DNA of 64,000 nt from Escherichia coli. GTDB taxonomy: Bacteria; Pseudomonadota; Gammaproteobacteria; Enterobacterales; Enterobacteriaceae. The position numbers and the translations under genes were made by a program. Where the stretch lies: the NCBI RefSeq assembly GCF_003790525.1, contig NZ_CP033635.1; one strand, given 5' to 3'. Positions 1,200-9,963 of the stretch are shown here, piece after piece (position 1 is the first letter of the stretch; each line of letters starts with the position of its first letter). The notes under the pieces are model-generated. The model searched no databases. It was not told the origin of the DNA and saw nothing but the letters and a program-made list of their open reading frames with translations.

Positions 1200-1650
1200 A
1201 TGCTCAGGTGGCCAAATTCAGTATGCCAGAACCAGAACATCTTGTGGTCAGGCAGAGGAAGAGCAAACTGTTACTGGACTCACTGCATGCGTGGATGGTG
1301 GAGAAAAATGCCACGCTGTCCAAAAATCCAGACTGGGAGAATGGTTCAGCTGTGTACTGAATCAGTGGGGCGCACTCTGTTATTACAGTGTTGACGGTCA
1401 GGCGGAGGCAGACATAATGCCGCGGAAAAAGCCCTTTGTGCCATCTGTCTCGGAAATAAAAACTTTATGTTCTTCGACGGCGAGCGCAGTGCACTGTTGT
1501 ATGGGCTTATCGGCACTTGCCTTCTGAACGACATTGATCCGGAAGAGTATCTGCGCCATATCCTGAGCGTACTGCCGGAATAACCTTCCAACCGTATTGA
1601 TGAACTCCTGCCATGGAACGTAGTTCTCACCAATAAATAAGCATCAATAT
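1200..1650 (+). mobile_element. IS66-family transposase (TnpC) 3' remnant, frameshifted
   Basis: Frames give LLLDSLHAWMVEKNATLSKNP, GNKNFMFFDGERSALLYGLIGTCLLNDIDPEEYLRHILSVLPE and NRIDELLPWNV, matching the C-terminal region of IS66-family TnpC across at least two frameshifts. Confidence 0.5.
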
Positions 1651-1778
1651 GATTCTCCATTAACGCTTACCTTTTCTCAGGCTATTTTTGATTTTTTTTG
1701 CTTTTCCCCGCCACTTTATGGTGATTATCACATCAATATACATCGACAGATATTAACGTAACTGAAGTGAGGTGAAGC

Positions 1779-2993
1779 ATGAAATTTGAACGCCATCATG
1801 AAATATTGAAACGACTCAGTAAATTCGGTTCTGTAAAAGTATCCGATCTGTCCAATAGCCTCAATGTAACGAAAGAAACTATTCGATCAGATCTTAATGA
1901 ACTTGCCAGACTTGGCTATCTGACTCGATGTCATGGCGGTGCTTTTATCGTCCTAGACTCGCTTGATACTATTGCGAAAAATGAAATCGCTTATGCGCTT
2001 GAAAATTATGATACAGCCCAGGGAATAAAAAAAGGCCACTCAACTATGAAAAGTCAAGTATGCGTTATTGGTTCGTTTAATGTTGATATCATCAGTTATT
2101 TGCCGAGGCTTCCCACTATCGGAGAATCGCTTCTGGCAAGTAATTTTATATTTTCACCGGGGGGAAAAGGTTGTAACCAAGCGCTGGCAGCAAGCTTTGC
2201 CGATACTGATGTTTATTTCATAACAAAAGTAGGTACAGATCACTTTAGTGATTATGCGATCAACTTTATGAATTCGTCTAAGATTTATAAAAGTATAATT
2301 TATCAAACGAAAGAAACGCAAACCGGAACTGCCACGATCCTTGTTAATGAAGGTACTGGCGATAATGTTATTGCGATCTATCCCGGTGCCAACATGACAA
2401 TGTCGTCCGATGAAATAACTATTCAGAAAGAAGCGATTATTAATTCTGATGTCATACTTCTGCAGCTCGAAACAAATTATACCGCTCTGCAACAAGCGAT
2501 CACATTGGCGCAAAAAAACAGTATCCCGGTCATTATTAACCCGGCACCCTATAATGATATCGTCAACGAACTTATTCAGGATGTTGATTATATCACCCCC
2601 AATGAAACAGAAGCTGGTTTACTGTCCGGCATAGACGTACACGATCTTGAATCAGCTAAACGAGCTGCAGAAGCTATCCACAATAAAGGGGTAAAAAACA
2701 CGGTTATCACGCTCGGTAGCAAGGGCTCACTCGCATTTGATGGCAAAAAATTCATTCATTCGCCAGCGTTTCCAGCGGTCGTTAAAAATACGGCAGGAGC
2801 CGGGGATGCTTTTAACGGCGCTCTGGCATCAGGACTTGCGAAAGGAAAATCACTGGAATCAGCACTGTGTTATGCCAGTGCCTTTGCATCCCTGGCGGTG
2901 GAGACAAGCAATGCTTCCGACATGCCTGAACATGAATCTGTGATACATCGAATTCAGAGTATACATTATCAGCAAACTATTTTTACGCATTAA
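1779..2993 (+). CDS. DeoR-type HTH domain fused to PfkB/ribokinase-family sugar kinase
   Basis: 404-aa ORF; N-terminus HEILKRLSKFGSVKVSDLSNSLNVTKETIRSDLNEL is DeoR-like; C-terminus has PfkB features (GGKGCNQA, NTAGAGDAFNGALA). Confidence 0.75.
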   Translation: MKFERHHEILKRLSKFGSVKVSDLSNSLNVTKETIRSDLNELARLGYLTRCHGGAFIVLDSLDTIAKNEIAYALENYDTAQGIKKGHSTMKSQVCVIGSFNVDIISYLPRLPTIGESLLASNFIFSPGGKGCNQALAASFADTDVYFITKVGTDHFSDYAINFMNSSKIYKSIIYQTKETQTGTATILVNEGTGDNVIAIYPGANMTMSSDEITIQKEAIINSDVILLQLETNYTALQQAITLAQKNSIPVIINPAPYNDIVNELIQDVDYITPNETEAGLLSGIDVHDLESAKRAAEAIHNKGVKNTVITLGSKGSLAFDGKKFIHSPAFPAVVKNTAGAGDAFNGALASGLAKGKSLESALCYASAFASLAVETSNASDMPEHESVIHRIQSIHYQQTIFTH

Positions 2994-3006
2994 GAAGGGA
3001 CAGAGA

Positions 3007-3765
3007 ATGAATAACACCAAAAAATCACTAAAGGTGCTCTTTATTGGAGAATCCTGGCATATTCATATGATTCATTCAAAAGGATATGACAGTTTTACCT
3101 CAAGTAAATATGAAGAAGGTGCGACCTGGTTACTCCAATGTCTGAAAAATAGTCAGGTAGATGTCACCTATATGCCGGCACATACGGTACAAATTGCCTT
3201 CCCTGAAGATGTGGCACAGTTAGAACAATATGATGCCATCGTTATTAGTGATATTGGTAGTAATACTTTCCTGCTACAAAATGATACTTTTTATCAGCTT
3301 CGCATAAAACCAAACGCTCTCGAACTGATTAAAGAATATGTGAATAACGGTGGTGGGTTATTGATGATTGGCGGCTATCTCTCATTCATGGGAATTGAAG
3401 CAAAAGCCAATTATAAAAATACAGTTCTGGCTGATGTGCTCCCGGTTACGATGTTAGATGGTGACGATCGTGTCGAAAAACCAGAGGGTGTTATTGCACA
3501 GCCATCACAACCTGACCATCCGGTTATTAAAGGGTTCTCTGAATATCCTTTTTTCCTAGGTTATAACCGGGCGATCGCTAAAGAAAATGCTGAGGTGGTA
3601 TTAACAATAAACAACGATCCATTACTGGTCTTTGGTAACTATCACAACGGGAAAATAGCCTGCTTTATGAGTGACTGTTCACCGCACTGGGGTACACAGC
3701 AGTTTATGTCCTGGCCGTTCTATACCGCGTTGTGGGTAAATATACTGACTCATATTGCAAGATAA
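3007..3765 (+). CDS. Class I glutamine amidotransferase-like (ThuA/DUF1355-type) protein
   Basis: 252-aa ORF 14 bp after the upstream gene; motif NNGGGLLMIGGYLSF suggests a GATase1-like fold; family assignment tentative. Confidence 0.55.
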   Translation: MNNTKKSLKVLFIGESWHIHMIHSKGYDSFTSSKYEEGATWLLQCLKNSQVDVTYMPAHTVQIAFPEDVAQLEQYDAIVISDIGSNTFLLQNDTFYQLRIKPNALELIKEYVNNGGGLLMIGGYLSFMGIEAKANYKNTVLADVLPVTMLDGDDRVEKPEGVIAQPSQPDHPVIKGFSEYPFFLGYNRAIAKENAEVVLTINNDPLLVFGNYHNGKIACFMSDCSPHWGTQQFMSWPFYTALWVNILTHIAR

Positions 3766-3821
3766 TAATAATAATGGGGTAACACCAGTTACTCCATTTA
3801 CTATAATAGAAGGATTGATGT

Positions 3822-4787
3822 ATGAAAAAGAATAAGTACTCAACTCCCTTATGGATGCTTGCCACGATTCTTGCGGGTATGCTCTCCCCTATGCAATCAG
3901 CGGTGAATGGTCAATTAGGTCACTGGTTACAGGACGGTAATGCATGCGCAGTTATCTCCTTTGCCAGTGGTTTAGTCGTGATGTTTTTTATTATTATGGC
4001 GCGAAAAGAAACCCGGCAACAATTTGCGGCAATTCCTTCTCTGATTAAAAACCGAAAAGTTCCTCTCTGGAACTGGTTTGCCGGTCTCTGTGGAGCGATG
4101 GTGGTATTTTCTGAAGGCGCATCAGCCAGCGCACTCGGGGTCGCAACGTTTCAGACCGCACTGATCTCCGCGCTATTGCTGTCTGGTTTACTTTGCGATC
4201 GCTTTGGTATCGGTGTCGACGAGAAAAAATACTTTACCCCTTATCGCATCATCGGTGCATTATTTGCGGTTATTGCTACGATTTTTGTTGTGTCACCGCA
4301 GTGGCATTCTACCTCTTTCATTTTACTTGCCATTCTTCCGTTCTTAGCTGGTTTGCTTGCAGGATGGCAGCCCGCTGGAAATGCAAAAGTAGCTGAAGCT
4401 ACGGGATCCATGCTGGTTTCAATCACCTGGAATTTCATCGTTGGATTTTGTGTTTTAGGCACAGCGCTAGCTATTCGTGTCGCATTAGGGCACGTCACTG
4501 TTCAATTACCAGATGTCTGGTGGATGTATCTTGGCGGCCCGCTTGGACTAATGTCTATCGGTTTAATGGCCATTTTGGTCAGAGGTCTTGGGTTACTGAT
4601 GCTGGGGGTTGCTTCAACGGCGGGCCAGTTACTGGGATCAGTATTGATTGACGTATTAATTCCATCGCTGGGCAATACCGTTTATCTGGTCACGATCATC
4701 GGAACACTGTTTGCACTGGTCGGTGCAATTGTTACCACTATTCCGGAATACAGAGCCTCGAAAACAATGAAGAAAATGGAGGTATAA
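3822..4787 (+). CDS. Polytopic inner-membrane protein (tandem DUF606/YdcZ-like, DMT-superfamily-like)
   Basis: 321-aa ORF with about 10 hydrophobic segments and an internal two-fold repeat; RBS-like aggattg upstream. Confidence 0.6.
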   Translation: MKKNKYSTPLWMLATILAGMLSPMQSAVNGQLGHWLQDGNACAVISFASGLVVMFFIIMARKETRQQFAAIPSLIKNRKVPLWNWFAGLCGAMVVFSEGASASALGVATFQTALISALLLSGLLCDRFGIGVDEKKYFTPYRIIGALFAVIATIFVVSPQWHSTSFILLAILPFLAGLLAGWQPAGNAKVAEATGSMLVSITWNFIVGFCVLGTALAIRVALGHVTVQLPDVWWMYLGGPLGLMSIGLMAILVRGLGLLMLGVASTAGQLLGSVLIDVLIPSLGNTVYLVTIIGTLFALVGAIVTTIPEYRASKTMKKMEV

Positions 4788-4789
4788 TC

Positions 4790-5824
4790 ATGAAAGATTA
4801 TCTACAAACTGTGACGGGCCCCGTCGCCCGTGAAGATATGGGGCTAACACTTCCTCATGAACATCTGTTCAACGATCTTTCCTCTGTTGTGGATGCTCCT
4901 TGCTATCCTTTTTCACAACGGCTTGTTGATAAAAAAGTCACGGCAGAAATCCAGTGGGCATTAAAACACGATCCTTATTGCTGCGCTGATAATATGGACC
5001 GCAAACCTATTGAAGATGTGATCTTCGAAATTAATAACTTTATCTCGCTCGGTGGTCGCACCATTGTTGATGCCACAGGGTCTGAGTCTATCGGACGAGA
5101 TGCGCAGGCATTACGAGAAGTCGCATTAAAAACAGGTCTGAATATTGTTGCTTCCTCCGGTCCCTACCTGGAAAAATTTGAAAGCCAGAGAATTCATAAA
5201 ACGGTTGATGAACTAGCGACAACGATCGATAAAGAATTGAATCAAGGGATTGGCGATACGGATATTCGTGCCGGAATGATCGGTGAAATAGGTGTCTCAC
5301 CGACATTTACCGAAGCCGAGCATAACAGCTTGCGGGCTGCCTCGCTGGCACAGATTAACAATCCTCATGTGGCGATGAATATTCACATGCCGGGCTGGCT
5401 TCGTCGCGGTGATGAAGTACTCGACATTGTGTTAGGTGAAATGGGCGTCTCGCCAAATAAAGTCTCTCTCGCACACTCGGATCCGTCAGGAAAAGACGTG
5501 GCGTATCAGCGGAAAATGCTTGATAAAGGTGTCTGGCTGGAATTCGACATGATTGGCCTAGACATTACCTTCCCGAAAGAGGGAATAGCGCCAGGGGTGC
5601 AGGAGACTGCCGATGCCGTCGCTCATCTCATTGAGTTGGGATACGCCGATCAGCTTGTTCTCAGCCACGATGTCTTCCTTAAACAAATGTGGGCTAAAAA
5701 TGGCGGTAATGGCTGGGGATTTGTTCCAGATGTTTTTCTGGCCTATCTGGCGGAGCGCGGCGTCGATAAAACGATCCTCAAAAAACTCTGTATCGATAAT
5801 CCCGGACGATTATTGACCGCATAA
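4790..5824 (+). CDS. Phosphotriesterase-family (PTE/Php-like) metal-dependent hydrolase
   Basis: 344-aa ORF; N-terminal metal-binding motif TLPHEHL typical of the PTE family; starts 3 bp after the upstream gene. Confidence 0.8.
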   Translation: MKDYLQTVTGPVAREDMGLTLPHEHLFNDLSSVVDAPCYPFSQRLVDKKVTAEIQWALKHDPYCCADNMDRKPIEDVIFEINNFISLGGRTIVDATGSESIGRDAQALREVALKTGLNIVASSGPYLEKFESQRIHKTVDELATTIDKELNQGIGDTDIRAGMIGEIGVSPTFTEAEHNSLRAASLAQINNPHVAMNIHMPGWLRRGDEVLDIVLGEMGVSPNKVSLAHSDPSGKDVAYQRKMLDKGVWLEFDMIGLDITFPKEGIAPGVQETADAVAHLIELGYADQLVLSHDVFLKQMWAKNGGNGWGFVPDVFLAYLAERGVDKTILKKLCIDNPGRLLTA

Positions 5825-5833
5825 AACCATTAT

Positions 5834-5856
5834 CCCCCGGCACATTGCGCCGGGGG
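5834..5856. terminator. Hairpin between convergent PTE gene and ggt fragment
   Basis: cccccggc-acattgc-gccggggg perfect inverted repeat directly after the PTE stop. Confidence 0.4.
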
Positions 5857-5863
5857 ATGTCAA

Positions 5864-6202
5864 TTAATACCCCGCCGTTAAATCATCCACCAAGCGCGAG
5901 TCGGATGCGCCGTACAACTCACCATCCGACCCAACCATAATGCTTTGCGTGCTGCCCATCGCCTCATTCAGCGCCACTTTCTGACCTTTTGCTTCCAGCA
6001 GCTTGAGCGTATCCGGACTAAACCCTTTTCAACACGCAGCTCGTCCGGCAACCACTGATGGTGGAAACGAGGCGCATTGGTCGCTTCGGCAACATTCATT
6101 CCACAATTGATGCTGTTCACCACCATTTGCGGCACGGTAGTGATGATCCAGCTACCGGTAACAAAGTGAGTACATAAAGGCCATACTGTCACGAACAGTG
6201 CA
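5864..6202 (-). pseudogene. gamma-glutamyltranspeptidase (ggt-like) C-terminal fragment, truncated by ISL3-family insertion and frameshifted
   Basis: Minus-strand translation ...NAPRFHHQWLPDELRVEKG... and ...GSTQSIMVGSDGELYGASD...DDLTAGY-stop matches the GGT C-terminus; N-terminal ~80% is absent. Confidence 0.6.
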
Positions 6203-7936
6203 AAAGTGGCTCTTCCTCAACCTAGGTGAAGATTTTCATGCCAGTGGACTCATTACCCTCCGCCTAAGTAGTTCAAGTCCGGCTCGACCATACATCTGGC
6301 GTATCAGCACCTTCAGGCGATTTACATGACCTTCGACAACACCAGTACTCCAGCGACTGCTGATTGCCTCACATATAGCCGCAGCATCAGCTTCCATCCC
6401 CGCAGCTACGCACCGAAGTTCTGCTGAGCCGCTTTCGTGGACCCGAGTGAACCAGCTGCTTAGCTGTGATTTATTTTAGGTTTTCAGAATACGGTAGAAC
6501 TCGAGTACCAGTTGCTGCGCTATTTTCAACTCCGGTTCTTTTTCACACATCAGACTAATAAATCGGAAAGCATAATTTTCTCCACCCCTGATTATTCTCC
6601 AGGGCATCAACCAGCGGCTTACCCGGGACACTGAAGGAAGTCTTGCGGCAGTAGTAACCGGTGGGATCCAGCCTTTATGCCATTTGGCAACAGCATCCCT
6701 GACGATGGTTTCACTGCCTGTAACCCCCCTGGCCACCATTTCCCGCCATATCCGGCCGGAGTTATAATTACCACATTCTCGTTGCTCTTTTAACCACTCC
6801 CTCCATGGGTCCAGAAGCCCTCGCTTTGGAGGCCTGGTTGACATTTCAGGGAATGTTCCTGAACCCACCCAGCGACTGACTGTCACTCGCGACAGGCCTG
6901 TAATACGGGATATTTCCCTGAAACTACATCCCTTGTTATGCAGGGCCATAACCTCTGTCCAACGCTGATGCCGTTTTTTGCGGATGTGCTGTTTAAGGCG
7001 TTCCAGACGACGGAGCGATGCTACAGGCACAGATATTTCTGGCTCAGGTGATTTCTTCAGTGATAACTCTCTGACAACAAGACGTATCAGAGGCATATGT
7101 CTGTACATCATTCGTTCAGGCTCATCACCAATATTTTTTAGCAGGTGCCATCGATCGGCCACCTGTCTGGCCTGAGGTGCACCTTCACGTGCTGCTGTCG
7201 CATAGACTCCACTGCGATCACGCGAGACAACCTGTATTTCCGGATATTTTCTGAACCAGGTCGCCAGCGTACGCTGATCACGGCCGGGAAGCAGGACGAG
7301 GGGACGGTGAGTATCAGGATTGACTATTAACATACCGCAGCAGTGGCCCCGATGCCACGCCCACTCATCAATACCGACATGAGGCGCGCCTGACTGTTTC
7401 GTCTCCGGGGTATTGATAAGCCTGCGAAGAAGAGTATCAGCACTGCAACGGAGACCCACTGCCGTTGCAGCCCGTTTTCCAGCCTCACCTCCAGCTATTA
7501 ATCCCAGTTGACATTGTTAATTTTGTAACGCCTGTGAAGACTGCTGGTGTGAACTGGCGAAGGGAGCAAGCGACTCGGCAAAAATTTTACGTGAACAAGC
7601 CGGGTTACGGCAGTACCAGTGGCGGACGGAAAATACAAGCCATAGCGTCTGCCCTGAGCAGGGTAGATGCTGTATCCGGCGCCGACGACAACTATGAACA
7701 GAGTCGCTACGCTTAAAGCATTCAGGACATTGTGCTGTTTTGCGTTTTCCGTGGAGATGGAGGGTTATACCGTCAGAGCTAATAATTTGTCGACTGCATC
7801 GCCATCCGCAAGGTAACTGTAGAAGTGTCTTAAGAGAGTGCATTGCGTTGCCCATAACTTAAAACAGCTTAGATCCTTGTTCGCCAGAAAGTTTCATCCA
7901 TTTTCTTCCACCCAGGTTGCGGAAGAACCACTTTTC
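6203..7936 (-). mobile_element. ISL3-family insertion sequence (~1.73 kb) with ~30-bp imperfect terminal inverted repeats
   Basis: Left end aaaagtggctcttcctcaacctaggtg versus reverse complement of right end aaaagtggttcttccgcaacctgggtg (3 mismatches); internal ISL3-type transposase. Confidence 0.6.
6215..7855 (-). pseudogene. ISL3-family transposase, disrupted by at least two frameshifts
   Basis: Zn-finger N-terminus (7855-7517), DDE core GIDEWAWHRGH...SRDRSGVYATAAREGAPQARQVADRWHLLKN (7459-6476), and C-terminal STGVVEGHVNRLKVLIRQMYGRAGLELL in a third frame (about 6300-6215). Confidence 0.6.
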
Positions 7937-8138
7937 ATCCGTCGTTGACAGATGTGAAGTATGCGGGAGAAAAAGTGAATATCTAACTGTAATAACTCAG
8001 ACCGGTACGAGTACTCGGGACGTCTACAATCATTCAGGGCAAAGTGCTAAAATTTCTCTATCCCGGGATGCCCCTACCAACGCAGCACTCCCGGAGATAT
8101 CATTACAGCTCTGCAACTGATTTCCGCGACTGAACCGC

Positions 8139-8546
8139 TCAGTTCCTATCCTTCCAGTTGCCCTCCTGCCCCCCCTCCCTGCTGTATACCCCGGTACCAC
8201 AACTCGGGCAGCACTTTTCCCCCTCATAATTTTCGTCACACATCACACAAAACCACTTTCTCACCTTCACCGTATAATCCGGAACCGTCATACCCTGCAG
8301 ATGCAAACGACGGGCCTCTTTCTCTGCCGGGTCAAGCCAGGTGCATCGCAGCAGGATTTTCTCAGCGACAGTCATCTGGTCATGTTCAAACCACGGTGGT
8401 TGTCCGTCATTGCCCCGCTGAAGTGTTAACGGGCATCCACAGGACACACAGCACAAAACGTCCTGGCGGTTGTGCTTCGCTGCTTCTTTCGCCGTAACAA
8501 AATGGCCTTTGCTGTCATTCGCCATATAACAGTTCAGAATTCGCAT
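8139..8546 (-). CDS. Cys-rich zinc-ribbon protein, hypothetical (paralog of upstream gene)
   Basis: CxxC pairs and a PWFEH motif shared with the adjacent gene; aggagg RBS just upstream of the ATG at 8546; start uncertain. Confidence 0.45.
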   Translation of the reverse strand: MRILNCYMANDSKGHFVTAKEAAKHNRQDVLCCVSCGCPLTLQRGNDGQPPWFEHDQMTVAEKILLRCTWLDPAEKEARRLHLQGMTVPDYTVKVRKWFCVMCDENYEGEKCCPSCGTGVYSREGGQEGNWKDRN

Positions 8547-8941
8547 ATTTCCTCCTGAGTTGTCCGGGGAATACTGAATCCTCCGGTCTGGCAGTGTGTG
8601 CAGTACCGCTCCCCATAATAATCGTGGTGACATTGTCTGCAGTGCCAGCTGGCTTTACGCACCACGGGTAAGGCATCCGGTACGAATTGCTGCAGACGTT
8701 TAATCAACTGTATTTCTCTGCGCTCCGGCCTGACATAAGGGCACTGTTGACCGTGCTCTGTCAGCCTGTCGTCAGTGTGTTCAAACCAGGGAAGTTCAGT
8801 GTCGTATTGCGGATGGTATCTGAGTGCACTGCCACACAAGTGGCAGGTGTAGTTAGCATAAGGTGCGGCCTGTGCAGTACGGGCGCCCGTCAGACGTCCG
8901 TTGCCATCAAGAGCGATAAAGGATTTTGCGTACATAGTCAT
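8534..8941 (-). CDS. Cys-rich zinc-ribbon protein, hypothetical
   Basis: 135-aa ORF with CHLCG, CRQCH, CTHCQ pairs and a PWFEH motif. Confidence 0.5.
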   Translation of the reverse strand: MTMYAKSFIALDGNGRLTGARTAQAAPYANYTCHLCGSALRYHPQYDTELPWFEHTDDRLTEHGQQCPYVRPERREIQLIKRLQQFVPDALPVVRKASWHCRQCHHDYYGERYCTHCQTGGFSIPRTTQEEICEF

Positions 8942-9194: not shown

Positions 9195-9764
9195 TCAACT
9201 CCGGCTACAGCCAAAATTGCGCTCACCGGTGCAGTGAGCTTTGGTATGTTCCTTCGCCAGATAGTCAGCACGTTCCAGCACCTGCTGAAAGCCAGTGTCA
9301 TCATCGCGTTCCAGCCACACCGCCGGCCAGGCCGGAAAATGCACCAGCGTGGCATGGCACCCGACATCCACTCCCAGGGCACTGCACCACGCCTGTTTAA
9401 TCATCCCGGCCAGTGATCCCGGAGCACGGTAATCACCGGCACGACACCAGGTATCCCGGTTAACCAGCAGCATCAGGTGATAGTGTTTTTTACCTTTGCA
9501 CTCCCCAAACTCCCGGGCCCAGACGTAATGCAGGGTTGTGGGATGCACGCGTTTACCTTCCCGATGCTTACGTTTCTGGTAAGCGTCGATTCGGGCTTTC
9601 AGGGCATTGATGAAGCGGGATATCACAGCTGCGTCCGTTGCTGCCGGTACATCCGGGAAACGCAGGTCAACCCGCAATGCCGTCAGGCGGGGATGAACAT
9701 TCAGTGCGTGCCGCACCGTCTCACGAATACGTTGCTGCCAGAAGGGGTTGTATTTGTAGGTCAT
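9195..9764 (-). CDS. YfjJ/YagK-family (inovirus Gp2-like) prophage protein
   Basis: N-terminus MTYKYNPFWQQRIRETV... recalled as the YfjJ/YagK family of CP4-type prophages; ATG at 9764 preceded by ggag; an upstream GTG at 9800 is an alternative start. Confidence 0.6.
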   Translation of the reverse strand: MTYKYNPFWQQRIRETVRHALNVHPRLTALRVDLRFPDVPAATDAAVISRFINALKARIDAYQKRKHREGKRVHPTTLHYVWAREFGECKGKKHYHLMLLVNRDTWCRAGDYRAPGSLAGMIKQAWCSALGVDVGCHATLVHFPAWPAVWLERDDDTGFQQVLERADYLAKEHTKAHCTGERNFGCSRS

Positions 9765-9963
9765 GGTTAAATCTCCGTATGGTTCATACGGAATAGCCAC
9801 GTCGTAAAAAATGCGCAGAGTCCCTGAAGTGACCTCCGGCAGGACACTGTCTCAGGCACTCTGTGATAACCCGAACGGTCGTCTCCGGACTGACGGTTGA
9901 ATTTTCAGCGTTGTTTTTTTAATGTAAAAAACCGGTTACGGGTAAGGCTGTGAGGAGGGAGTG

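What the first reader, a model, noticed from the sequence alone, without database searches (positions are those of the whole stretch)
5864..7936. ISL3-family element with frameshifted transposase abutting a truncated ggt paralog
Only the last ~110 codons of a gamma-glutamyltranspeptidase-like gene remain, ending at the left inverted repeat of an ISL3-family element. The transposase is split over at least three frames, so the element is probably immobile. The flanks show no clean 8-bp duplication, suggesting a later deletion removed the rest of ggt.
Basis: partly seen in the sequence, partly recalled or inferred. Interest (0 to 1): 0.35.

Follow-up and report, generated by a model that had tools for sequence, protein, structure and literature searches.

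The report
Dead ISEc38 beside a ggt stub
This is an ordinary, already annotated piece of E. coli island debris: a dead copy of insertion sequence ISEc38 sits beside the last ~100 codons of a gamma-glutamyltransferase gene, and that stub most likely arrived attached to four neighbouring genes taken from another bacterium's ggt locus.

Summary
The window is E. coli, from a CP4-44-type island between cobU and yeeX. RefSeq already annotates a "gamma-glutamyltransferase" pseudogene and an "ISL3 family transposase" pseudogene here, and about half of 5,426 complete E. coli genomes carry the locus.

- **Identity and ends.** The element is an ISEc38-like IS spanning 6187-7950 (1764 bp), not ending near 7936.
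- **Transposase.** It is not frameshifted. It is one 540-codon frame (7855..6236, minus strand) broken by two in-frame TAA codons. One is fixed in all 11 copies checked; the other is in 5 of 11.
- **The ggt stub.** It covers residues ~478-580 and has its own 1-nt and 12-nt deletions. It is not a paralog that decayed in place.

In Salmonella and Citrobacter the same four genes (kinase, amidotransferase-like, transporter, phosphotriesterase-like) lie directly beside the full-length native ggt. One collinear alignment runs from those genes into the stub. The stub is closest to E. coli ggt (92%, dS 0.24), so I infer an Escherichia-like donor. No E. coli genome has a longer copy. No 8-bp duplication flanks the IS, but other ISEc38 copies mostly lack one too. 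Interest is low.

The parts
1233..1671 (+). Remnant of an IS66-family (ISEc23-like) element: the 3' part of its transposase gene plus its right terminus (...ACGCTTAC). It forms the left edge of the captured block.
   Evidence: PGAP calls it an 'IS66 family transposase, frameshifted, missing N-terminus'. It is 83-84% identical to ISEc23-family elements over window ~1233-1690. Sequence read.
1684..5863 (+). Captured four-gene block, all ORFs intact here: DeoR-HTH/PfkB ribokinase-like kinase (1779-2993), GATase1-like protein (3007-3765), DMT_YdcZ transporter (3822-4787) and phosphotriesterase-family protein (4790-5824). A 39-nt spacer follows, carrying a hairpin at 5832-5858.
   Evidence: One collinear blastn alignment joins window 1684-6147 to S. 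enterica L016 4893-9364 at 75.8%. Identity to Citrobacter and S. bongori is 75.5-77%. The hairpin is I7.
5864..6162 (-). ggt remnant, corresponding to residues ~V478-Y580 of the 580-aa E. coli GGT. It has a 1-nt deletion in the CCC run at 6023-6025, which causes the frameshift. It also has a 12-nt deletion between GCTACC repeats near 6150-6157, which removes P482-S485.
   Evidence: two ORF pieces in different frames; GGT profiles; 92.5% to resident ggt; alignment showing both deletions.
6163..6186 (.). 24-nt spacer of unassignable sequence between the end of ggt homology and the IS terminus.
   Evidence: No match with up to 6 substitutions in any ggt locus held or elsewhere in the window. Alignment.
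6187..7950 (-). ISEc38-like ISL3-family insertion sequence, 1764 bp and complete end to end, but with a dead transposase gene.
   Evidence: Aligns over its whole length at 95% identity to an intact plasmid 'ISL3-like element ISEc38 family' copy; homology starts and stops exactly at 6187 and 7950.
6187..6229 (.). Terminal inverted repeat at the transposase-distal end (TGTCACGAACAGTGCAAAAGTGGCTCTTCC...).
   Evidence: I1; ends compared across six copies.
7908..7950 (.). Terminal inverted repeat at the transposase-proximal end (reverse complement TGTCAACGACGGATGAAAAGTGGTTCTTCC...).
   Evidence: I1.
6236..7855 (-). Transposase pseudogene: a single frame of 540 codons that differs from the intact ISEc38 transposase at 45 positions.
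   Evidence: PGAP 'internal stop' annotation.
7517..7519 (-). In-frame TAA at codon 113 (Leu TTA in the intact copy). It is polymorphic among E. coli genomes.
   Evidence: TAA in 5 of 11 chromosomal copies. The other six, where the codon is present, read TTA.
6476..6478 (-). In-frame TAA at codon 460 (Gln CAA in the intact copy). It is fixed at this locus and cuts off the last third of the DDE domain.
   Evidence: TAA in 11 of 11 copies; the residues after this stop match PF01610 positions 168-239 of 240, while the 327-aa ORF before it holds only positions 1-105.
7951..8138 (.). Right flank: island-specific non-coding DNA downstream of a DUF7828/zinc-ribbon gene. It is not ggt.
   Evidence: No similarity to any ggt locus. 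In paralogous islands homology begins only at window 8162.

Best explanation
The region is a junction inside a mosaic E. coli genomic island of the CP4-44 type, lying between cobU and yeeX.

**What is shown**
- A 4.5-kb block carries four genes (DeoR/PfkB kinase, GATase1-like, DMT transporter, phosphotriesterase-like) plus the last ~100 codons of ggt.
- This block is collinear with the native ggt locus of Salmonella and Citrobacter, where the phosphotriesterase-like gene converges on full-length ggt.
- In E. coli the block is bracketed on the left by the terminus of an IS66-family remnant and on the right by a complete ISEc38-like element.
- The IS has kept both inverted repeats, but its 540-codon transposase frame carries two nonsense codons. 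The older one separates the last third of the DDE domain from the rest, so no full-length transposase can be made.

**What is inferred**
- The block was cut out of the ggt locus of an Escherichia-like donor by IS insertions, one of them within or next to ggt at about codon 478.
- It was then joined to the island by IS-mediated recombination or deletion. The ggt stub is therefore a passenger scar, not a gene that once worked at this site.
- After capture, both the stub and the IS decayed neutrally. The stub acquired a 1-nt deletion, a 12-nt deletion and excess amino-acid changes. The IS acquired its nonsense codons, and in other strains its own indels and deletions.
- The whole arrangement has since been inherited in roughly half of E. 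coli.
- The IS cannot move on its own. It could at most be mobilised in trans where an intact ISEc38 is present.
For: **Identity and annotation**
- The region is essentially identical (rounded 100.0%) to E. coli SMS-3-5 and many other strains. 2,582 of 5,426 genomes hold at least 80% of window 5800-8200.
- PGAP annotates both pseudogenes.
- The island context is shown.

**IS identity and ends**
-.

**Single frame with two TAA stops**
- One search shows the single-frame translation.
- NF033550 matches in one stretch at 341 bits.
- The DDE domain is split by the second stop.
- Stop 2 is in 11 of 11 chromosomal copies and stop 1 in 5 of 11. Independent 1-nt indels, a 457-bp deletion and a truncation occur in other strains.

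**Ancestral synteny**
- S. bongori and S. enterica have the order yhhX-(yhhY)-kinase-GATase-DMT-PTE-ggt-yhhA-ugpQCEAB.
- Three Citrobacter genomes and S. diarizonae have PTE followed within about 45-50 nt by a convergent ggt, full-length in Citrobacter.
- One collinear alignment joins window 1684-6147 to L016 4893-9364.
- E. coli K-12-type strains have tssD-yrhA-IS1-yrhB at that position instead.

**Origin of the stub**
- It is 92.2% identical to E. coli ggt and 80.5-85.1% to Citrobacter and Salmonella ggt.
- Against E. coli ggt, dN is 0.038 and dS 0.24, with 8 amino-acid changes. About 26 would be expected if all the divergence were neutral decay of a duplicate.
- No resident E. coli allele is closer than 92.9% in the listed sample.

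**No longer copy in E. coli**
- A chimeric PTE + stub + 700 nt ggt query is covered at least 80% in 0 of 5,426 genomes.
- The 5' part of ggt occurs essentially once per genome: 5,433 places in 5,425 genomes.

**Left edge**
- The left edge of the block lies at the IS66-remnant terminus.
Against: - No donor genome with a ggt matching the stub was found. No non-coli Escherichia species appeared in the genome scan for the phosphotriesterase-like gene.
- The protein search with the stub returned only short fragments.
- The dN/dS argument rests on only 93 codons.
- A 24-nt stretch of unknown origin lies between the stub and the IS. The IS insertion itself may therefore not be what truncated ggt.
- The two bracketing IS elements belong to different families, so they cannot have acted as a simple composite transposon. 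The actual joining events are not reconstructed.
- Where the truncation happened (donor, an intermediate replicon, or an early island) cannot be told from present sequences.
Confidence: 0.75

Rival explanations
1. A complete second ggt gene (a paralog) once sat at this site in the island. ISEc38 inserted into it, and a later IS-adjacent deletion removed the 5' four-fifths of ggt together with the target-site duplication.
For: - There is no 8-bp duplication, and the right flank is not ggt.
- IS-adjacent deletions are a well-known activity of insertion sequences (general knowledge).
- Other strains show further deletions starting at this IS.
Against: - None of 5,426 complete E. coli genomes has PTE next to a longer ggt, and none has a second copy of the ggt 5' part at this locus.
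- The missing duplication is not diagnostic. Four other ISEc38-type copies also lack an 8-bp duplication.
- 24 unassignable nucleotides separate the ggt homology from the IS end.
- The model can be rescued only by moving the deletion back to a time before the island spread in E. coli. At that point it merges with the best explanation.
Confidence: 0.15
2. The stub is a copy of the 3' end of E. coli's own ggt. It was duplicated within the genome, for example by IS-mediated transduction of flanking DNA, and has since drifted.
For: Its nearest relative among the sequences compared is the resident E. coli ggt, at 92%.
Against: - The stub is physically continuous with the phosphotriesterase-like gene and spacer, exactly as in Salmonella and Citrobacter. 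No E. coli genome has that cluster at its own ggt locus.
- Homology to resident ggt starts exactly at the stop codon and does not include the downstream DNA.
- With dS 0.24 there are only 8 amino-acid changes, which is too few for pure neutral decay of a duplicate.
- The stub lies outside the range of resident alleles in the listed sample (90.5-92.9%).
Confidence: 0.07
3. The interrupted transposase is still functional. This could be by stop-codon readthrough or recoding, or because the 327-aa middle ORF acts as a truncated regulator or transposase, which would leave the element mobile.
For: - Both terminal inverted repeats are as well preserved as in the intact copy.
- The 327-aa ORF retains the first part of the DDE domain and an HTH.
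Against: - Both stops are TAA.
- One stop is polymorphic and the other is a plain CAA>TAA change relative to the intact element.
- Other strains carry different frameshifts and a 457-bp deletion at the same locus.
- 45 of 540 residues differ from the intact protein.
- The last third of the DDE domain is beyond stop 2.
- The element sits at the same place in more than 2,500 genomes.
Confidence: 0.02

Closest known systems
ISEc38 (ISL3 family insertion sequence), as annotated by NCBI on E. coli IncF-type plasmids (e.g. NZ_AP028871.1, transposase WP_077885511.1)
   Same: The two are 1764 bp long and collinear end to end at 95% nucleotide identity, with the same 540-codon transposase frame and the same terminal inverted repeats beginning TGTCA. 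The domain make-up is also the same: ISL3 zinc ribbon, and a DDE_Tnp_ISL3 domain split by an insert carrying an HTH.
   Different: The window copy has two nonsense codons and 45 amino-acid replacements. It is chromosomal and fixed at one site. No target-site duplication is present. I could not compare it with the ISfinder reference entry itself.
E. coli gamma-glutamyltransferase gene ggt (K-12 type, WP_000595082.1, 580 aa)
   Same: The stub is 92% identical in nucleotides over the last ~295 nt, and its C-terminus ...VDDLTAGY is colinear with that of ggt.
   Different: Only residues ~478-580 remain, so the region before residue ~478, most of the protein, is absent. A 12-nt deletion removes P482-S485, and a 1-nt deletion shifts the frame. 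The downstream DNA is that of the Salmonella/Citrobacter-type locus, not of the E. coli ggt locus.
Native ggt locus of Salmonella enterica, S. bongori and Citrobacter spp. (yhhX-yhhY-[kinase-GATase1-like-DMT-PTE]-ggt-yhhA-ugp)
   Same: Gene order and orientation are the same, and the PTE-ggt convergent junction matches. One collinear alignment runs across all four genes into ggt.
   Different: Nucleotide identity is only 75-77% for the cluster and 80-85% for the stub, so these genera are not the donor. In them ggt is full length and no IS is present.

Membership tests
ISL3 family insertion sequence (ISEc38 group) | Transposase matching the ISL3 family profile over its whole length | tested here: met
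   NF033550 transpos_ISL3 scores 341 bits against a cutoff of 180, covering profile positions 1-368 of 370 in one stretch, residues 31-535. PF01610 scores E 4e-26 and PF14690 E 1.5e-6.
ISL3 family insertion sequence (ISEc38 group) | Terminal inverted repeats at both ends | tested here: met
   The arms 6186-6228 and 7909-7951 are 43 nt long and 77% complementary. The ends coincide with those of five other copies.
ISL3 family insertion sequence (ISEc38 group) | 8-bp direct target-site duplication. This figure for the family comes from my own knowledge of ISfinder's family description. | tested here: not met
   The flanks are GGCCATAC on the left and GATGTGAA on the right. Four other ISEc38-type copies also lack an 8-bp duplication, although one has a 5-bp repeat, GGAGC. 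This feature therefore says little here.
ISL3 family insertion sequence (ISEc38 group) | Uninterrupted transposase reading frame, needed for an autonomous element | tested here: not met
   Two in-frame TAA codons at 7517-7519 and 6476-6478. The DDE domain is split by the second stop.
ISL3 family insertion sequence (ISEc38 group) | Near-identity to the ISEc38 reference sequence, needed to call it the same IS rather than a relative | tested here: inconclusive
   It is 95.0% identical in nucleotides and 495 of 540 residues identical to a copy that NCBI labels 'ISL3-like element ISEc38 family'. The ISfinder reference entry was not available.
Gamma-glutamyltransferase (GGT, PF01019 / NF007187) | Significant sequence similarity to GGT | tested here: met
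   PF01019 scores E 2.8e-10, covering profile positions 420-465. NF007187 scores E 2e-56, covering profile positions 484-581 of 581. DNA identity to E. coli ggt is 92.5%.
Gamma-glutamyltransferase (GGT, PF01019 / NF007187) | Full-length precursor with the large subunit and the catalytic N-terminal threonine of the small subunit (T391 in E. coli, from my own knowledge) | tested here: not met
   Only residues ~478-580 are present. NF007187 scores 191 bits against a cutoff of 990. The right flank of the IS is not ggt.
Gamma-glutamyltransferase (GGT, PF01019 / NF007187) | Intact reading frame in the part that remains | tested here: not met
   A 1-nt deletion splits the fragment into two frames. 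A 12-nt deletion removes P482-S485.
Paralog of E. coli ggt (arising by duplication within the lineage) | Origin by duplication of the resident gene rather than by import with foreign flanking DNA | tested here: not met
   The stub is contiguous with a gene cluster that lies beside native ggt in Salmonella and Citrobacter. Against E. coli ggt, dS is 0.24 with dN/dS 0.16. The stub lies outside the resident-allele range in the listed sample. No E. coli genome has the cluster at its own ggt locus.

The most novel reading that the evidence does not exclude
The ggt stub may be a molecular fossil recording where the island's four-gene cluster (kinase, GATase1-like, DMT transporter, phosphotriesterase-like) came from. 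On this reading an Escherichia-lineage ancestor or sister species kept the cluster at its ggt locus, as Salmonella and Citrobacter still do. E. coli lost the cluster there, where K-12 now has tssD/yrhA/yrhB, and half the species retains it only as an IS-captured copy on a CP4-44-type island. The stub's divergence (dS ~0.24 from resident ggt) would then give a handle on the donor and on the age of the capture.
Probability: 0.5. Interest if true: 0.3.

Novelty: already known. Interest (0 to 1): 0.12.

Why it matters
It matters little beyond annotation hygiene.

- **Already annotated.** Both pseudogenes are annotated in RefSeq, and ISEc38 is routinely listed in E. coli mobilome surveys (e.g. PMC10383658).
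- **Survey counts.** Many of the ISEc38 hits such surveys report in E. coli chromosomes may be this fixed, dead copy rather than an active element.
- **The ggt remnant.** It should not be counted as evidence of a second ggt gene in E. coli.
- **A provenance tag.** The stub marks an IS-mediated capture of a chromosomal gene block whose function is unknown. The same block sits at the native ggt locus in Salmonella and Citrobacter.

Tried and rejected
- **Frameshift reading.** I rejected it after the single-frame translation and the one-stretch profile match.
- **Looking for a longer or intact ggt next to the PTE gene in E. coli.**
  - The exact-protein context look-up gave only the same junction or further deletions.
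  - The ggt 5' part occurs about once per genome.
  - The chimeric query gave 0 of 5,426 genomes.
- **Looking for the donor.**
  - The genome-contig scan with the PTE protein found Citrobacter, Salmonella, Klebsiella, Proteus, Providencia and Actinobacteria, but no non-coli Escherichia.
  - The protein search with the repaired stub returned only short GGT fragments and was uninformative.
- **Defining the ISEc38 target-site duplication from other copies.** The best E. coli hits were all one plasmid context. Of four independent copies, only one had a short 5-bp flanking repeat. No conclusion on the usual duplication was possible.
- **Checking whether the right flank (7951-8200) or the 24-nt spacer derive from any ggt locus.** Neither matched anything.
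- **E. coli plasmids carrying the IS66 remnant and the start of the cluster.** pMTY9754_NA1 is interrupted by IS1 before the region of interest, so it was no help.
- **Literature.** ISEc38 appears only in survey tables. A search for ISL3 target-duplication papers gave nothing specific.
Full report
**What the window is.** The 2.4 kb around the finding is essentially identical (rounded 100.0%) to E. coli SMS-3-5 and many other E. coli chromosomes. 2,582 of 5,426 complete genomes hold at least 80% of window 5800-8200. RefSeq/PGAP already annotates a 'gamma-glutamyltransferase' pseudogene here (frameshifted, missing N-terminus). Next to it is an 'ISL3 family transposase' pseudogene labelled 'internal stop'. 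The wider context is a CP4-44-type island between cobU and yeeX/tmaR. Its backbone includes cbtA/cbeA, yeeS/T, a YagK/YfjJ-family gene and zinc-ribbon genes.

**Checking the ggt fragment.** The fragment is real.
- On the minus strand, 5864-5977 and 5968-6192 give two ORF pieces in different frames.
- They match Pfam G_glu_transpept (E 2.8e-10) and positions 484-581 of the 581-position NCBIfam ggt model (E 2e-56).
- At DNA level, window 5864-6157 is 92.5% identical to the resident E. coli ggt, with one 1-nt gap.
- The alignment shows a 1-nt deletion in the run at 6023-6025. It also shows a 12-nt deletion between GCTACC repeats that removes P482-S485. From my own knowledge of the E. coli GGT structure, that stretch includes the oxyanion-hole glycines G483 and G484.
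- Homology ends at about 6162, so the remnant corresponds to residues ~V478-Y580.
- The next 24 nt (6163-6186) match nothing in any ggt locus or elsewhere in the window.

**Checking the IS.** The element belongs to the ISL3 family.
- NF033550 scores 341 bits against a cutoff of 180. PF01610 and PF14690 also match.
- Aligned to an intact plasmid copy that NCBI labels 'ISL3-like element ISEc38 family', it is 95% identical. Homology starts and stops exactly at 6187 and 7950, giving 1764 bp.
- The terminal inverted repeats are 43 nt long and 77% complementary. They begin TGTCA in all six copies compared.

The three ORF pieces (7855-7517, 7459-6476, 6397-6236) lie in the same frame.
- A single-frame translation gives 540 codons with two in-frame TAA codons.
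- That translation matches the ISL3 profile in one unbroken stretch, residues 31-535.
- Relative to the intact copy, the stops are Leu113 TTA>TAA and Gln460 CAA>TAA, and 43 other residues differ.
- The 79 residues after stop 2 carry positions 168-239 of the 240-position DDE_Tnp_ISL3 profile. The 327-aa ORF before it holds only positions 1-105. The catalytic domain is therefore split.
- From general knowledge of ISL3 transposases, the conserved '...EGxNxxxK' motif with the catalytic Glu lies in that last segment (here VVEGHVNRLK).

**The IS copy is old and decaying.** Among 11 chromosomal copies of this locus, stop 2 is present in all. Stop 1 is present in five. Others carry their own 1-nt indels, a 457-bp internal deletion or a truncation. 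This is the pattern of an old, fixed, neutrally decaying copy, not of programmed recoding.

**Target-site duplication.** At the true ends the flanks are GGCCATAC and GATGTGAA, so there is no duplication. Four other ISEc38-type copies (two E. coli plasmids, pO26_1 and an Edwardsiella plasmid) also show no 8-bp duplication; pO26_1 has a 5-bp repeat, GGAGC. The absence is therefore weak evidence on its own. The firmer observation is that the right flank (7951-8138) is island DNA downstream of a zinc-ribbon gene and has no similarity to ggt.

**Where the stub came from.** The gene to the left of the stub (4790-5824) encodes a phosphotriesterase-family protein. It is the last of four intact genes: DeoR-HTH/PfkB kinase, GATase1-like, DMT_YdcZ transporter and PTE.
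- Its closest homologues outside E. coli are in Salmonella and Citrobacter, at 85-88% amino-acid identity.
- In S. bongori and S. enterica, the same four genes in the same order sit at the native ggt locus: gntR-yhhW-yhhX-(yhhY)-[four genes]-ggt-yhhA-ugpQCEAB. The PTE gene converges on a full-length 580-aa ggt.
- In S. enterica, S. diarizonae and three Citrobacter genomes ggt begins about 45-50 nt after the PTE stop.
- A single collinear blastn alignment joins window 1684-6147 to S. enterica L016 4893-9364 at 75.8%. It runs through all four genes and the spacer and into the stub. Citrobacter and S. bongori behave the same way.
- K-12-type E. coli has tssD-yrhA-IS1-yrhD-yrhB between yhhY and ggt instead.

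The stub is therefore the edge of a chromosomal block taken from a ggt locus. It is not the relic of a second ggt gene that worked in this island.

**Who the donor was.** This part is inference.
- The stub is 92.2% identical to resident E. coli ggt but only 80.5-85.1% to the Citrobacter and Salmonella genes. E. coli ggt is 83-87% identical to those genes over the same stretch.
- Against E. coli ggt, dN is 0.038 and dS 0.24 over 93 codons, with 8 amino-acid changes.
- If the stub were a duplicate of E. coli's own ggt that had decayed neutrally, roughly half of dS should appear at non-synonymous sites. That would be about 26 changes, not 8.
- Most of the divergence therefore accumulated while both genes were under selection, in separate lineages. 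A smaller excess of replacements was added after truncation.
- In the listed sample, resident alleles were 90.5-92.9% identical to the stub. Resident alleles differ among themselves by up to about 6%.
- The donor was thus probably an Escherichia-like lineage outside present E. coli diversity.
- I could not find it. The species-representative genome scan found no non-coli Escherichia with the cluster, and the protein search with the repaired stub was uninformative.

**Was the rest of ggt ever here?** A chimeric query tested this: the PTE 3' end, the spacer, the stub and 700 nt of ggt beyond the truncation point. It is covered at least 80% in 0 of 5,426 genomes. The 5' part of ggt occurs essentially once per genome. 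Nothing shows a longer copy at this site in E. coli. The truncation could have happened in the donor, on an intermediate replicon or in an early form of the island, and present data cannot tell which. The 24-nt unassignable spacer suggests the ISEc38 insertion may not itself be the event that cut ggt.

**The other edge of the block.** Homology to Salmonella begins at window ~1684. That is 13 nt after the right terminus (...ACGCTTAC, ~1671) of an ISEc23-like IS66-family remnant. The 4.5-kb block is therefore bracketed by IS termini on both sides. This fits IS-mediated capture. Because the two IS elements belong to different families, the block is not a simple composite transposon.

**Verdict.** The ggt stub, the ISL3 element, the dead transposase and the missing duplication are all real. 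The transposase is not frameshifted, the IS ends are 6187 and 7950, and the 'paralog truncated by a later deletion' story is better replaced by 'passenger fragment of a donor's native ggt'. The object is a known IS (ISEc38 type) and a known annotated pseudogene pair, both common in E. coli. ISEc38 is routinely reported in E. coli mobilome surveys. Novelty: already known. Interest: low. The provenance of the four-gene cluster is a modest evolutionary footnote.

Noticed in passing
window 1779-5824: An intact four-gene cluster of unknown function: a DeoR-HTH fused to a ribokinase-like PfkB kinase, a GATase1-like protein, a DMT_YdcZ transporter and a phosphotriesterase-family hydrolase. It is native beside ggt in Salmonella and Citrobacter, and is also found in Klebsiella, Proteus, Providencia and Budvicia. 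The PTE protein has 45-64% identical homologues in many Actinobacteria. In some E. coli strains the transporter gene is split (L005, L012).
   Followed up: partly
L019 6001-7743 (resident ggt) across E. coli genomes: The resident E. coli ggt is unusually polymorphic. 1,925 of 5,425 genomes have a 5' part only 90-95% identical to the K-12-type allele.
   Followed up: no
window 6187-6201 and 7936-7950; L002, L099, L100, L101, L102 ends: The outermost 15 nt of ISEc38-type elements come in two versions, TGTCAACGACGGATG and TGTCACGAACAGTGC. Either version can occur at either end in different copies. This suggests recombination or end exchange between copies.
   Followed up: no
window 6236-7855 (-), residues ~260-430 of the conceptual protein: The ISEc38-type transposase carries an insert of about 170 aa inside its DDE domain. 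The insert has an HTH that matches the N-terminus of IS21-family transposases (NF033546, E 8.5e-13, residues 303-394).
   Followed up: no
L104 (NZ_CP079635.1, 'Klebsiella pneumoniae plasmid' of 1.04 Mb): This PLSDB record carries the E. coli locus with sampled stretches 100% identical to the window: the 47 nt before the IS and the 250 nt after it. It looks like a mis-assigned or contaminating E. coli chromosome segment rather than a Klebsiella plasmid.
   Followed up: no
window 8139-8941 (-) and 9195-9800 (-): Two overlapping DUF7828/Zn_ribbon_11 genes and a YagK/YfjJ ('inovirus Gp2 family') gene lie immediately right of the IS. They are typical CP4-type island backbone, and paralogous copies exist in other islands of the same genomes.
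   Followed up: no
window 5832-5858: A 13-bp, G+C-rich stem (92% complementary) lies in the 39-nt spacer between the PTE stop and the ggt stub stop (I7). It is probably a terminator shared by the two convergent genes, as the ancestral arrangement would predict.
   Followed up: no
L015 9268-10671 (S. bongori): One S. bongori assembly has three extra small ORFs called in the ~1.7 kb between the PTE gene and ggt. The junction therefore varies within that species too.
   Followed up: no
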